NCBI RefSeq assembly: GCF_963676685.1 | Contig: NC_092352.1 | Span: forward strand, 71,052,001 to 71,116,000 | DNA from: Mytilus edulis | Taxonomy: Eukaryota | Reading direction: 5' to 3' | Length of the DNA: 64,000 bases | Shown: positions 48,001 through 63,000 of the stretch, one piece after another | Position numbering within the stretch: position 1 is the stretch's first letter | How the letters are laid out: each line of letters begins with the position of its first letter | Position numbers: made by a program

Positions 48001-51000
48001 TGAAATTAAGTTTTTCATACTTTATTTTTCTTGAACTCAAAGGACTCTTACCAGTGATGCATTTTAATGATTTTCTTATAGGTTGTCTAGAGGTAAACAA
48101 ATTAATTTTGCGGACCCAATATTTTTACTGGCCATGGCCATATTGATGGTGGTTAATCGTCTCGGTGGGGTTTATGTCGATAATATTTTTGTCAAAACTA
48201 TTCATAACTTCATGAAAAAGTACATATTTCCATAATGCAAAAAAAAAAAAATATATGTGTATTTCCTATTTCCATACCTATAACCAAAATAACGGGATGC
48301 AAGCATCTCAGTAAAACGGGATGCCAGCATCTCAATAAAACGGGATGCCAGCATCCCAATATGACTGGATGCCAGCATCCCAATAAAACGGCATGCCAGC
48401 AGCATCCCAATATGAATGGATGCCATTTCAATATATAGGAAATCCAGCATCCCCAAAAAATAAAAAAAATATTTAAAAAAAAAATATATGCAAAACTAGC
48501 ATCCTAGTAAAAGTAAGATGCTCCAGTACATTATTATTTTAACAACAGCATCTGCATCAAATTTTAATGCTGGAAGCATATAAAATCAAACAGACAGCAT
48601 ATGTACTATAAAAAGATGCTACCTTATACAAAATATGAAATAAATTCAGAAATACTTTGACAAATTATTCAAAATTAGCATCTTTTCATTGACATATGCT
48701 ATTTCCTAGTTATTTCACGGAATGTATGAAAAAAACTGTACATGAGAATTTGAAATTTTAGTTGAGAACGCATTGTAGCCGCCGACTCTGATTAAAATAT
48801 TTTAATTAAAAAACCGACAAAATAGCATATTTCTACAGCATAAAAGCGTACTTTTTTCATTTTTTCTTTAGTACTACAAGGAATTAAACCAATAATACAT
48901 CAGTGTAATACATAGCCTCAATTTCTTACTTAATGTTTTGTTATCAGAGTGTTTATTGAATATGCGTATCATAGTCTATAAATATATCACTATATTTGAG
49001 AATGTTGTCCACTTTTTTCTCATTTCATCAAAACCATACTTCTATATATAATAACATTTATCAACAAGAGCAATTTATTAATCTCGAAGCTAAATAACTG
49101 CGAGTAGGTCTGAAAAATGACGAAACGTATTTCATAACCAAAAGAGAAAAAAGCCTGAACATTAGTCATACACAAAATATTATTACATAAAAAAAATGAG
49201 CACTTCATTTCATAATTATTCTAGATACAATTTATTTTACAATAATCTTTGTCAATCATCCATATGACATTTGGACCAATTGTTGTACATGAAGAATTAA
49301 ACAATAACAGAAGTGACCATTGGCAAAAATTAAAGTGACCATTACTCCAATTATGTAAATCTATCCTGCAGACAAATATTAACCTTTTAAAGAACATGGA
49401 AGATCAAATGTTATAAAAACATACTAGCAACGTCTGAGAATCAAGCATTTAATATCATTATTCACTACACGTTGACATCTAAGTATTTAAACGATTCCGG
49501 ACCAGTGTGACCATTGTAAAGATTTTTACTTTCGATCATTCAAATTTTTGTATTTCTTGTAAAACGATATTATTCATTTCACTTCACATTCGTTTAAATT
49601 TGAGAAAAAATCCGTATTGATATGATGCATGAGGTTGAGGATTTAGTCACACCTAACGATACCTTACAAAGACACACAAGAACACAGACTGGTAATACAC
49701 TTCATGAATGTGATGTTAGTGCAAGAGAATTTAGTAAAGGTGTAGATATGAAGAAACACACGAGAACACACACTGGTGGAAACCGTCATGTATGTGATAT
49801 ATGTGGTAAAAGGTTTAGTCAGAATGGTGGTTTACAGATGCACATGAGAACGCATACGGGTCATAAACCCTATGCATGTGATGTGTGTGGTAAAGGGTTT
49901 AGTCAGAATGGTGGTTTACAGAGTCACATGAAAACACATACAGGTGATAAACCCTATGCATGTGATGTGTGTGATAAAGGATTTAGTCAGCATGGAAGTT
50001 TACAGATTCACATGAGAACACATACAGGTGATAAACCCTGTGTCTGTAATGTATGTGGTAAAGGATTTAGTCAGAATGGTAGTTTACAGATTCACATGAG
50101 AACACATACAGGTGATAAACCTCATGTCTGTGATGTATGTGGTCAAGGGTTTCGTCAGAAAAGTCATTTACGGGTTCACTTGAGAACACATACAGGTGAT
50201 AAACTTATATGTAAACTCCATGCATGTGATGTATGTGGTAAAGGGTTTAGATGGCAAGGTAATTTACGGAGACACATGAGAACACATACAGGTGATAAAC
50301 CCCATGAATGCGATGTATGTGGCAAAGATTTTAGTCATCTTGGTAATTTGCAGATTCACATCCGAAGACATACAGGTGACAAACCCCATGCATGTGATGT
50401 ATGTGGTAAAGCATTTATTGAACTTGGCGAGTTTAAGAGACACATTAGAATACATACAGGTGATAAACCTCATGACTGTGGTGTATGTGGTAAAGGGTTT
50501 ATTCAGCATTATAATTTAAAGCGTCACATGAAAATACATACAGGTGATTAACTACGTGAATTTGATGTATGTGATAAAAGATTTAGTCAGCATGAAAGTT
50601 TACAGGTTTATATGAGAACACATACAGGTGATTAACTCTATGAATGTGATGTATGTGGTAAAGGATTTAGTTTACATGGTAGTTTACAGATTCACACGAG
50701 AACACATACAGACGATAAACCTTATGACTGTGATGTATGTGGTGAAGGGTTTAGTCAGAATGGTAGTTGACAGATCCACATGAGAACACATACAGGGGAT
50801 GAACCTCGTGTCTGTGATGTGTGTGGTAAGGGGTTGAGTCGGAAAAATTGTTTACAGATTCACATAAAACACATACAGGTGATAACCTGCATGCATGTGA
50901 GGTATGTTGCAAACGATTTAGTCTTAGTAAATTGCAGATCCACATTTAAAGACATACAGGTAACAAACCCCATAAATGCGATGTATGTGGTAAAGGATTT

Positions 51001-60000: not shown

Positions 60001-63000
60001 CTCATGTCTGTGATGTATGTGGTAAAGGATTTAGACATCATGTTGGTTTACAGAATCACATGAGAACGCATACAGGTGATAAACCCCATACATGTGATAT
60101 ATGTGACAAAGGCTTTAGTTGAAAAGACGTTTTACAAATTCACATGAAAACACATACAGGTGATAAACCCCATGCATGTGATGTATGTGGTAAAGGGTTT
60201 AGTCGGCAAGGTCATTTACGGGTTCACATGAAAACACATACAGGTGATACACCCCATGTATGTGATGTATGTGGCAAACATTTTAGTCATCTTAGTAATT
60301 TGCAGAGTCACATTCGAAGACATACAGGTGAAAAACCCCATGCATGTGATGTATGTGGTAAAGGATTTATTGAACCTGGCGAGTTTAAGAGACACATTAG
60401 AATACATACAGGTGATAAACCTCATGACTGTGGTGTATGTGGTAAAGGGTTTATTCAGCATTATAATTTAAAGCGTCACATGAAAATACATACAGGCGAC
60501 TAAATTCATGACTGTGGTGTATGTGGTAAAGAATTTATTCGGTATAGTAGTTTACAGATTCACATGAGAACACATACAGGTGATACACCTTATGTCTGTG
60601 ATGTATGTTATAAAGGATTTAGTCAGCATGGTAGTTTACAGATTCACATGAAAATACATACAGGCGATTAACTCCGTGAATGTGATGTATGTGGTAAATG
60701 ATTTAGTCAACATGGTAGTTTTAAGATTCACATGAGAACACATGCAGGTGACAAACCTTATGTCTATGATGTATGTGGTAAAAGATTTAATCAGCATGAA
60801 AGTTTACAGATTCACATGAGAACACATGCAGGTGACTTACTCCGTGAATATGATGTACGTGGTAAATGATTTAGTCAACATGGTAGTTTTAAGATTCACA
60901 TGAGAACACATGCAGGTGACAAACCTTATGTCTATGATGTATGTGGTAAAAGATTTAATCAGCATGAAAGTTTACAGATTCACATGAGAACACATGTAGG
61001 TGACTTACTCCGTGAATATGATGTACGTGGTAAATGATTTAGTCAACATGGTAGTTTTAAGATTCACATGAGAACACATGCAGGTGACAAACCTTATGTC
61101 TATGATGTATGTGGTAAAAGATTTAATCAGCATGAAAGTTTACAGATTCACATGAGAACACATGCAGGTGACTTACTCCGTGAATATGATGTACGTGGTA
61201 AATGATTTAGTCAACATGGTAGTTTTTATATTCACATGAGAACACATGCAGGTGACAAACCTTATGTCTATGATGTATGTGGGAAAGGGTTTACTCAGCA
61301 TGGTAGTTTACAGATTCACATGAGAACACATGCAGGTGACTTACTCCGTGAATATGATGTACGTGGTAAATGATTTATTCAACATGGTAGTTTACACGAG
61401 AATACATGCAGATGATAATTCAAATGTCTGCGTGTATGTGGTAAAGGATTTAATCAGTATGGTAGTTTACACAGTCATACGAGAACACATTCAGGTGATA
61501 AACCTCCTGTCTGAGATGTATGTGGTAAATAGTTTAGTCACCATGGTAGTTTACAGATTCACATGAGAAAACATTCATATGGTTAACCCCATGTATGTGA
61601 TGTATGTGGTAAAGGATAAGTCAGCATGGTAGTTTACAGATTCACCTGAGAACACACTCAGGTGATAAATCTCATGTCTGTGATGTATGCGGTAAAGGGT
61701 TTACTCAGCATTATAATTTAAAGCTTCATATGAAAACACATACAGACGATAAAATTCATGACTGTTGTGTATATGGTAAAGGATTTAATCGTTATAGTAG
61801 TTCACAGATTCACATGAGAACACATACAGGTGATAAACCTCATGTCTGTGATGTATAAAGTAAAAGCTTTAGACAGCAAGGTCATTTACGGGTTCACTTG
61901 AGAACACATACAGGTGATAAATTTATATATAAACTCAATGTATGTGATGTATGTGGTAAAGGGTTTAGTCGGCAAGGTCATTTACGGATGCACATGAAAA
62001 CACATACAGGTGATAAACTCCATACATGTACATGTGATGTATGTGGTAAAGGGTTTAGTCGGCAAGATCATTTACGGATTCACATGAAAACACATACAGG
62101 TGATAAACTCCATGTATGTGATGTATGTGGTAAAGGGTTTAGTCGGCAAGGTCATTTACGGATGCACATTGTTATGATATTGTAATTATTGTATTTATTT
62201 ATGTTGGCCTGATTTGTATTGTGTGGCCTGATAGTTGTTTGCAGAATAATTTTAGAAATGTGCAGTTTAGAAATCTCTGGAACAATTAGAGAATGATTGG
62301 AACTTTCCAGAATGATCATTATAAAAGATGTGTTATATAAACTTCTACCGTTTACTAGAAACTTCCGTTGTAACTTTCTAGGATGTTCCATTATAGAGTG
62401 TTCTAGAATTTTCCTTGACAATTATATATATACAGACACTAAAGTTAAACACACACTCTTGGGTTTGGACTTAGCCATTGATAGACATTAGTATTCACCG
62501 CATTTGGATTGACACTTTAATTCTACAAACAACATCATACTGGATTGTGACCGTAGTAGTGAACGTAATATTCAGATTGGATTCCGAAAGATATCCGGAT
62601 ACAGATAAAGATAAAAGATTGGACTCATATTTTAACAGTTAAGTTAACAGTAATATCTGTGTAATACTTCTTGTAAACTTTTGTATAATAAATATTGTTA
62701 AATTTTACTATTGATTTGTGTCTTTTGTTGGCTACAATTTAAAGGCGATTTCTGGCCGTAACAGAAATTGGGGGCTCGTCCGGGATCTGAAAATATCTTA
62801 TTCAAAATTTGTTTAGTAATTTTTATTATAAATAGCCAACAAAATTCTACAAAATGGCATTTGATGCTGGTAAACTTTTGAAAACGCCAGACCTGGAGGG
62901 GTTTGATAATTTAAAGAAAGAGGAATTAGTGTTGCTTGCAAAGCATCTGAAATTAGATTTTAAAGTATCTATGAGAAAACAAATTATAAAAAATTTGGTT

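What the first reader, a model, noticed from the sequence alone, without database searches (positions are those of the whole stretch)
49048..62169. Tandem effector-less ZNF cluster with PRDM9-like finger shuffling
Seen: four units start at ~49048, 52459, 55584 and 59086 with near-identical non-coding flanks (A/C offset ~6.6 kb), yet their finger content differs. Helix residues -1..+3 are A: QNGG,QNGG,QHGS,QNGS,QKSH,WQGN,HLGN,ELGE,QHYN; C: QNGG,QQVH,QNGG,QNCG,RNAG,RQGY,QNGS,QQGH,RQGH,ELGE,QHYN; D: QNGS,QHGS,HHVG,*KDV,RQGH,HLSN,EPGE,QHYN. The framework ([22 protein letters not shown]) is homogenised even at DNA level. Known: this pattern typifies PRDM9 and TE-targeting KRAB-ZNF arrays. Inference: a fast-diversifying, KRAB-less DNA-recognition system evolving by unequal exchange of 84-bp cassettes, possibly for TE surveillance.
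Basis: partly seen in the sequence, partly recalled or inferred. Interest (0 to 1): 0.72.

Follow-up and report, generated by a model that had tools for sequence, protein, structure and literature searches.

The report
Mussel zinc-finger gene cluster, mostly decayed
Four tandem copies of a finger-only zinc-finger gene lie side by side in a mussel genome; one is still readable, three are broken, and they differ mainly because whole 84-base finger units were gained, lost and copied, which is ordinary for this gene class.

Summary
Four head-to-tail units start at 49046, 52459, 55553-55575 and 59076-59086. Their flanks are 85-97% identical, and all 28 quoted helix quartets are correct. The genome is a Mytilus mussel. 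A profile of the 84-bp finger unit finds 98 units, all between 49615 and 62194. Only 33 of the 98 are clean.

Only unit A keeps an open frame: 49622-50551, 309 aa, nine good fingers. B has lost its start and front fingers, and C and D carry disabling lesions. Each array continues for 1-1.7 kb as dead fingers that were already dead before the units duplicated.

Finger content differs through in-register gain, loss and copying of whole units, in dead sequence as well. Inside arrays, contact codons diverged faster than silent sites. Since the duplication they changed at the neutral rate, with no significant excess (6 of 36 versus 19 of 189, p=0.25).

No effector domain was found, and the frame starts inside a decayed finger. 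Nothing supports TE surveillance.

One lead remains open. The finger framework is closest to that of a scallop PRDM9-type protein.

The parts
49046..49621 (+). Unit A, shared non-coding 5' flank
   Evidence: blastn (94% to D, 90% to C); alignment. A 1-bp length difference between A and C/D lies just upstream of the shared ATG, so this stretch is not under frame constraint.
49622..50551 (+). Unit A open reading frame, 309 aa. It has a 55-aa leader made of two decayed finger units, then nine well-formed C2H2 fingers, then a stop in the linker after the last finger.
   Evidence: zf-C2H2 E 9.3e-61, 9 stretches; no other domain type; leader units hit the unit profile at E about 1e-8
50552..51602 (+). 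Unit A decayed finger tail: 13 units with stops and length changes, colinear with the tail of C
51603..52458 (+). Unit A 3' flank and A-B spacer
   Evidence: 51604-52738 matches 58229-59362 at 97.1%
52459..54958 (+). Unit B, a pseudogene. It has 280 bp of 5' flank joined directly into the last coding finger, then 19 units (1 clean), then the 3' flank from about 54296.
   Evidence: B02-B06 match D11-D15 at 98-99%.
54959..55552 (.). B-C spacer with 25/47-bp tandem repeats (54966-55197)
55553..56164 (+). Unit C 5' flank
56165..57269 (+). Unit C broken coding part: leader plus 11 fingers, with 1 frameshift, 1 premature stop and 2 fingers lacking a zinc ligand
57270..58230 (+). Unit C decayed finger tail (12 units)
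58231..59075 (+). Unit C 3' flank and C-D spacer
59076..59669 (+). Unit D 5' flank
59670..60506 (+). Unit D broken coding part: leader plus 8 fingers, with 1 in-frame stop, ending at the same linker stop as A
60507..62169 (+). Unit D decayed tail (20 units). It includes four 168-bp dimers 98-100% identical and a second partial copy of mid-array fingers. It is cut inside a unit at 62169.
62170..64000 (+). Neighbour: retroelement-like (virus-like) stretch that replaces D's 3' flank and runs off the window. It is unrelated to the other units' flanks.
   Evidence: no match to any other flank
62854..64000 (+). gag-like gene of that element. It has a coiled-coil N-terminal part and a SCAN/capsid-like C-terminal part, is read in two frames (one frame change), and is incomplete at the window end.
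   Evidence: PF02023 SCAN E 3.5e-12; 0 solved relatives at E<=0.01

Best explanation
This is a young, mussel-lineage tandem cluster of a finger-only C2H2 zinc-finger gene that evolves by birth and death.

Each 3.1-3.5 kb unit holds the following, in order:
- about 0.6 kb of upstream flank;
- two decayed fingers that hold the start codon;
- 8-11 good fingers;
- a stop;
- 1-1.7 kb of dead 84-bp finger units;
- a 3' flank.

The unit was duplicated to a pair, and the pair was duplicated to four (shown by flank identities). Inside the units the 84-bp repeats misalign in register. Whole fingers are thereby added, deleted and copied, and patches are converted. This is shown in both coding and dead parts.

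The fingers of the ancestral gene diverged at their DNA-contact residues faster than at silent sites (shown). That suggests selection for new binding specificities at that earlier stage (inferred).

Since the four-fold duplication the coding parts kept only moderate constraint. Contact residues drifted at the neutral rate. Three copies were disabled (shown).

At most one copy, A, can still make a protein. It would be a nine-finger sequence-specific DNA binder without a recognisable effector domain. If made, it would act by occupying a long target site or through partners bound by the fingers (inferred, untested).
For: Structure: flank identities 85-97% and the 97.1% block spanning A3'+B5' versus C3'+D5'. 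There are 98 units: A 24, B 19, C 25, D 30.

Decay: clean units are A 11/24, B 1/19, C 10/25, D 11/30. Only A is open.

Tails were dead before duplication: at least 6 lesions (3 stops, 3 length changes) are shared by positional orthologues in the A and C tails, and stops are shared by B and D tails. Tail framework pN/pS is 1.21 over 15 pairs.

Unit-register exchange:
- coding fingers match orthologues in other arrays at 0.92-0.98;
- C holds three extra A04-like units;
- A05 and A09 have no partner in C;
- D05 and D06 are unique;
- the D13-D20 dimers are 98-100% identical.
In addition, 16 of the 45 unit-frame stops sit at one linker codon.

Old diversification: within arrays contact pN is 0.43-0.54 against framework pS 0.26-0.29, with framework pN/pS 0.38-0.49. 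In the ordinary neighbour gene the framework pS is 0.66, so there contact pN (0.55) does not exceed it.

Some constraint after duplication: framework pN/pS is 0.50 (binomial p=0.045, 9 independent pairs). For the leader it is 0.46.

No effector:
- ORF A matched 19 Pfam families at E<=0.01, led by nine-stretch C2H2 matches, and none is a KRAB, BTB, SCAN or SET effector domain;
- the leader aligns to finger units;
- the exhaustive search with the leader returned only matches to its finger-like residues inside multi-finger proteins.
Against: Function of A is unproven. With 2, 1 and 0 frame-breaking lesions in C, D and A, an intact A is expected by chance about one time in three (Poisson, my inference).

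The constraint signal is borderline (p=0.045) and rests on 29 substitutions. Gene conversion from a functional relative elsewhere could mimic it.

An upstream spliced exon cannot be excluded. An AG preceded by a T-rich run lies 20-25 bp before the ATG. Only 10 of 28 upstream +-strand open stretches of at least 45 aa were sent to Pfam.

No expression data were available. Whether the four copies are truly in tandem in one haplotype could not be tested.
Confidence: 0.6

Rival explanations
1. Wholly dead relic. None of the four copies is functional. The locus is an exon-derived 84-bp minisatellite embedded in a 3-kb tandem repeat, and A's open frame has survived by chance.
For: 65 of 98 units are damaged. 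The frame begins inside a decayed finger. No close relative of ORF A was listed in two protein searches: the best identities were 55% among the 120 near-length proteins and 57% among the 120 longer ones. The window's own ORF A was not listed, although the window's B-box protein was. Null units are copied as readily as good ones.
Against: Framework and leader pN/pS are about 0.5 in the coding parts against 1.21 in the tails of the same units. All nine fingers of A keep four ligands.
Confidence: 0.25
2. One reading: an active, fast-diversifying, effector-less DNA-recognition system that tracks transposable elements.
For: Contact codons outrun silent sites within arrays. Whole-finger turnover occurs between paralogues. 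Passages of PMC10547256 report ZNF expansions in molluscs and predicted TE binding across metazoans. A retroelement lies next to D.
Against: Three of four units are disabled. There is no significant contact excess since duplication. No effector is present. No test of TE binding was possible. The adjacent retroelement interrupts array D and shows no evidence of being its target.
Confidence: 0.08
3. Origin rival, compatible with either functional state. The units are finger-only truncated copies of the zinc-finger exon of the mussel PRDM9-type gene.
For: P0303 (Argopecten irradians, 814 aa) has the highest identity to ORF A of all 240 listed proteins, 57%. It carries a PR domain (PF21549 E 2.7e-46), and that domain's best solved relatives are PRDM9 (E 3.5e-53, against 5.5e-28 for the next PRDM). 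An 8-residue framework word found in 11 of the window's 28 coding fingers is in 12 of its 13 fingers and in only 9 of 396 stored proteins. P0303 ranks first of 377 proteins for framework identity: 0.692, next 0.654, median 0.519, neighbour ZNF 0.525. Both arrays begin with a cysteine-less finger whose last histidine is glutamine. PRDM9 finger arrays lie in one exon, and truncated paralogues are common in cnidarians (passages).
Against: The margin over unrelated fish ZNFs is small (0.69 versus 0.65; 57% versus 55%). No PR/SET sequence is in the window (tblastn, best E 0.27). The leader's best local match to P0303 is to a middle finger, not to the start of its array. The mussel's own PRDM9 could not be fetched.
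Confidence: 0.18
4. Assembly artefact. The A-B and C-D pairs are two haplotypes of one two-unit locus laid in tandem.
For: The 6.5-6.6 kb offset and the 97.1% block. Mussel genomes are reported as highly heterozygous with widespread hemizygosity (titles and abstract starts only: PMC7653742, 10.1101/2020.09.15.298695).
Against: A's 5' flank is closer to D (94%) than to C (90%). B and D differ by a deletion of about 1.1 kb, and the arrays differ in unit content. No N gap lies in 49000-64000.
Confidence: 0.1

Closest known systems
Lineage-specific tandem clusters of poly-C2H2 zinc-finger genes in metazoans (KRAB-ZNF clusters of tetrapods, FiNZ-ZNFs of cyprinid fish, the large mollusc expansions)
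   Same: Head-to-tail gene copies mixed with pseudogenes. Fingers are encoded as 84-bp repeats in one exon. Whole fingers are gained and lost. Contact residues are more variable than the framework. Molluscs are named among the taxa with hundreds to thousands of such ORFs (PMC10547256, passages).
   Different: No KRAB, FiNZ or other N-terminal domain was found, and the frame starts inside a decayed finger. Three of four copies are dead. The linker reads D where the usual linker has E. Long dead-finger tails themselves amplify as 168-bp dimers.
PRDM9 zinc-finger minisatellite
   Same: An 84-bp repeat array with DNA-level similarity between repeats and extra divergence at contact codons. The finger framework is closest to a scallop PRDM9-type protein.
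   Different: No PR/SET, KRAB-related or SSXRD part is in the window. Repeats are 77-80% identical, not near-identical. There are four tandem copies, mostly broken. Allelic variation is unknown.
Truncated PRDM9 paralogues (birth-and-death, cnidarians and vertebrates; bioRxiv 10.64898/2026.09.07.749791, passages)
   Same: Partial duplicates with variable finger number, and short-lived copies.
   Different: The truncated forms named in the passages I read were 5'- and/or 3'-end truncations; the two-domain-or-fewer forms named there (SZ, sZ, S, s) all keep at least part of the PR/SET domain. A finger-only form was not among those passages. Kinship of this cluster to PRDM9 is only a lead.

Membership tests
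Tandem C2H2 (Krueppel-type) poly-zinc-finger proteins | Three or more adjacent fingers with C-x2-C-x12-H-x3-H spacing and seven-residue linkers | tested here: met
   zf-C2H2 E 9.3e-61 and zf-H2C2_2 E 1.7e-85, 9 stretches each in ORF A; 48 pattern matches in 49000-62400.
Tandem C2H2 (Krueppel-type) poly-zinc-finger proteins | Sequence kinship to DNA-bound finger arrays of solved structure | tested here: met
   ZNF568 E 5e-80, PRDM9 fingers E 1e-62, Aart and CTCF; 51 distinct chains at E<=1e-20.
KRAB zinc-finger proteins | N-terminal KRAB domain | tested here: not met
   no KRAB in ORF A; none in 10 of 28 upstream or inter-unit open stretches. A distant spliced exon is not excluded.
KRAB zinc-finger proteins | Binding to and silencing of transposable elements | not testable with these tools
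   No motif predictor, TE library or binding data were available.
PRDM9 | PR/SET methyltransferase domain upstream of the array | tested here: not met
   tblastn of P0303 residues 1-440 against the whole window gave best E 0.27; no SET or PR hit.
PRDM9 | Minisatellite-like array with near-identical repeat DNA | tested here: inconclusive
   framework third positions are 0.77-0.81 identical (control gene 0.50), overall 0.77-0.80; 74-80% matches.
PRDM9 | Excess replacement change at helix positions -1, +2, +3, +6 | tested here: inconclusive
   Within arrays yes (contact pN 0.43-0.54 > framework pS 0.26-0.29). Between positional orthologues of the paralogues no (6/36 vs 19/189, p=0.25; contact pN / framework pS 0.98).
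PRDM9 | Allelic variation in finger number and content | not testable with these tools
LTR retrotransposon (the neighbour at 62170-64000) | gag with capsid/SCAN-like domain; pol; paired LTRs | tested here: inconclusive
   gag/SCAN-like domain is met (E 3.5e-12). pol and the second LTR lie beyond the window end.

The most novel reading that the evidence does not exclude
The four units are finger-only tandem copies of the zinc-finger exon of the mussel's PRDM9-type gene. If so, they form a pool of live and dead finger cassettes next to, or apart from, the recombination-hotspot gene. They could compete for its sites, or act as donors of finger variants by gene conversion. That would be a form of PRDM9 paralogue not among those named in the passages I read.
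Probability: 0.15. Interest if true: 0.7.

Novelty: new member of a known kind. Interest (0 to 1): 0.33.

Why it matters
As it stands, the locus is a clean small example of how poly-zinc-finger genes are born, reshuffled in 84-bp register and die in an invertebrate. It has a built-in neutral control: the dead tails of the same units. That control separates old diversification at contact residues from recent neutral drift.

It also warns that differing finger lists between paralogues, and even unit shuffling, do not show an active recognition system.

If the kinship to the bivalve PRDM9-type array held up, the locus would bear on how PRDM9 finger arrays duplicate and decay outside vertebrates.

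Tried and rejected
- Effector search. Pfam on ORF A gave 19 families, none of them an effector domain. Ten stop-free pieces sent singly then gave nothing above cut-off; these were 10 of the 28 listed upstream of A plus some inter-unit ones. No exon-joined model was built or searched.
- Leader search. The 55-aa leader against 1.84 billion representatives gave 9079 hits. In all of the best 150, the best-scoring stretch matched the finger-like residues of the leader inside multi-finger proteins. No family-specific N-terminus emerged.
- Protein searches with ORF A, near and longer lengths. Hits were generic C2H2 proteins, at most 57% identical. Each search scored only 8000 capped candidates, so absence of close mussel relatives is weak evidence.
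- ESM Atlas: generic chordate C2H2 clusters, with recognition below the useful level.
Whether ORF A is in public protein sets stayed unchecked.
- Rfam over the whole window and tRNA scan: 0 hits, so there is no sign that the flanks are SINE-like.
- Literature. The searches found no paper on this cluster by title or abstract. The 8-residue framework word is in 0 papers. Supplementary tables, which hold per-species ZNF counts and PRDM9 paralogue lists, were closed and might bear on novelty.
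Full report
**Setting.** The window is AT-rich (GC 0.29-0.38). It has one run of 100 N at 22205-22304, which was left untouched. It is not human-like. The B-box/NHL open frame at 23168-24271 is 61-62% identical to named proteins of Mytilus galloprovincialis and M. edulis, and 11 of the 17 other hits carry Mytilus names. The genome is therefore a mussel of that genus. Upstream lie three B-box/NHL genes (19353-24274, +) and an ordinary 10-11-finger C2H2 gene (40772-41809, -). 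I used the latter as an internal control.

**The observation.**
- blastn of the non-array segments against the window gives four head-to-tail units with shared 5' flanks starting at 49046, 52459, 55553/55575 and 59076/59086.
- Flank identities are:
  - A-D 5' flank: 94%
  - A-C 5' flank: 90%
  - C-D 5' flank: 90%
  - A3'+B5' versus C3'+D5': 97.1% over 1139 bp
  - B's 3' flank versus the others: 84-86%
- The pattern fits an older duplication to a pair and a younger duplication of the pair. It is blurred by exchange, since A's flank is nearer to D than to C.
- A profile built from 23 in-frame units finds 98 units on the + strand, all inside 49615-62194: A 24, B 19, C 25, D 30. The only other hits are 10 weak ones (19-37 bits against 50-88) on the control gene.

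**State of the copies.**
- Only A has an open frame (49622-50551, 309 aa). All nine of its fingers keep four zinc ligands.
- C has one frameshift, one premature stop and two fingers with a replaced ligand.
- D has one in-frame stop.
- B keeps 280 bp of flank joined directly into the last coding finger. It therefore lacks the start, the leader and all earlier fingers.
- Clean units (84 bp, no stop, four ligands) number 33 of 98: A 11, B 1, C 10, D 11.
- After the shared stop each array runs on for 1-1.7 kb as decayed fingers.
- The tails of A and C are colinear, with A12-A19 matching C16-C23 and A24 matching C25 at 0.83-0.97. They share at least six lesions, three stops and three length changes. 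B and D tails share stops too, and B02-B06 match D11-D15 at 98-99%.
- The tails were therefore dead before the units duplicated. Their framework pN/pS is 1.21 over 15 pairs, as expected for neutral sequence.

**How the copies came to differ.**
- Coding fingers find their best match in another array (0.92-0.98), not beside themselves. Most fingers are therefore older than the unit duplication.
- Against A, C has three extra A04-like units and lacks partners of A05 and A09. D lacks partners of A04, A06 and A07 and has two fingers of its own.
- D's far end is a second partial copy of mid-array fingers, cut inside a unit at 62169.
- The same process acts in dead sequence. D13-D20 are four 168-bp dimers 98-100% identical, and B13-B18 form a similar set.
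- Of the 45 unit-frame stops, 16 sit at one linker codon and 8 each at two other codons. Null units have therefore been copied.
- In-register unequal exchange is well supported. Because it is equally busy where nothing is encoded, it is not in itself evidence of adaptive diversification.

**Selection.**
- Within arrays, framework third positions are 0.77-0.81 identical, against 0.50 in the control gene.
- Within arrays, contact codons (-1, +2, +3, +6) have pN 0.43-0.54. Framework pS is 0.26-0.29 and framework pN/pS is 0.38-0.49.
- In the control gene contact pN is 0.55 but framework pS is 0.66.
- The cluster's fingers therefore share a recent origin or are partly homogenised, while their contact residues are as different as in an old gene. 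This is the classical signature of diversification at contact residues (so described in passages of PMC10547256).
- Between positional orthologues of A, C and D the picture changes. Over nine independent pairs, framework pN/pS is 0.50 (binomial p=0.045) and contact pN over framework pS is 0.98. Replaced residues are 6 of 36 at contact positions against 19 of 189 in the framework (Fisher p=0.25). The 17 non-independent pairs give the same ratios.
- The leader has pN/pS 0.46.
- Diversification therefore belongs to the history of the ancestral array. Since the duplication there has been moderate constraint on the framework and neutral drift at contact sites.

**No effector found.**
- Pfam matched 19 families in ORF A, led by nine-stretch C2H2 finger matches; none is a KRAB, BTB, SCAN or SET effector domain.
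- The 55-residue leader is two decayed finger units. Both hit the unit profile at E about 1e-8, and the first 15 residues align to the knuckle and helix of a finger of the control gene. The frame thus opens inside what was once a finger.
- A 1-bp length difference between A and C/D lies just upstream of the shared ATG. This argues that translation starts there.
- An exhaustive search with the leader gave only matches to its finger-like residues.
- Ten upstream and inter-unit open stretches, searched one by one, gave nothing above cut-off.
- The scallop PR-domain region has no counterpart in the window.

**A lead on origin.**
- Of the 240 proteins listed by the two searches, the one most identical to ORF A (57%) is P0303 of the scallop Argopecten irradians.
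- P0303 has a PR domain. That domain's best solved relatives are PRDM9 (E 3.5e-53, next family 5.5e-28).
- Twelve of its 13 fingers hold an 8-residue framework word also found in 11 of the window's 28 coding fingers. Only 9 of 396 stored proteins hold the word at all.
- It ranks first of 377 proteins for framework identity: 0.692, next 0.654, median 0.519.
- Bivalve PRDM9 genes are reported (PMC10451705 and PMC8835667, passages).
- The margin is small and the mussel's own PRDM9 could not be fetched. This stays a lead.

**Neighbour.** From 62170 the sequence is unrelated to the other units' flanks. It carries a gag-like gene (62854 to the window end). Its C-terminal part matches the SCAN/capsid-like domain (E 3.5e-12). 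The gene is read in two frames (one frame change) and has no solved relative. It most likely marks a retroelement that cut array D. Its other end is outside the window, so this is inferred.

**What is known, and verdict.**
- Large lineage-specific poly-zinc-finger expansions are reported for molluscs, with a TE link across metazoans (PMC10547256, passages).
- Birth-and-death with truncated copies is reported for PRDM9 (bioRxiv 10.64898/2026.09.07.749791, passages).
- Mussel genomes are reported as rich in hemizygous regions (titles and abstract starts only). A haplotype artefact therefore cannot be dismissed.

Noticed in passing
window 62170-64000 (+): Retroelement-like stretch directly abutting the cut end of array D. 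Its gag-like gene has a long coiled-coil part and a SCAN/capsid-like part (Pfam E 3.5e-12). The gene is read in two frames (one frame change) and runs off the window.
   Followed up: partly
window 27617-28590 (-): Reverse-transcriptase-like remnant in three reading-frame pieces (one stop, one frame change). Pfam RVT_1 matches only weakly (E 0.0062, below cut-off).
   Followed up: partly
window 19353-24274 (+): Three tandem B-box/NHL (TRIM-like, RING-less) genes. The middle one is interrupted by the 100-N run. The best named relatives are Mytilus proteins at 61-62% identity.
   Followed up: partly
window 44048-44425 and 48284-48425: A 24-bp minisatellite (15.8 copies) and a shorter related array 4 kb away. 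The blastn matches between them run in both orientations. The 44048-44425 array gives long open frames on both strands that are repeat artefacts, not genes.
   Followed up: no
window 40772-41809 (-): Ordinary intact C2H2 gene with 10-11 fingers and the usual E-type linkers. It is 48% identical to ORF A and its synonymous sites are saturated between fingers. It was used as the control.
   Followed up: yes
window 37630-38083, 45856-46484, 30633-30812: Further tandem repeats with periods of 172, 147 and 57 bp, of unknown nature.
   Followed up: no
window 50207-50218, 57006-57017, 61925-61936: A 12-bp in-frame linker extension after one particular finger is shared by A, C and the second partial copy in D. 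It is a handy marker of orthology between arrays.
   Followed up: partly
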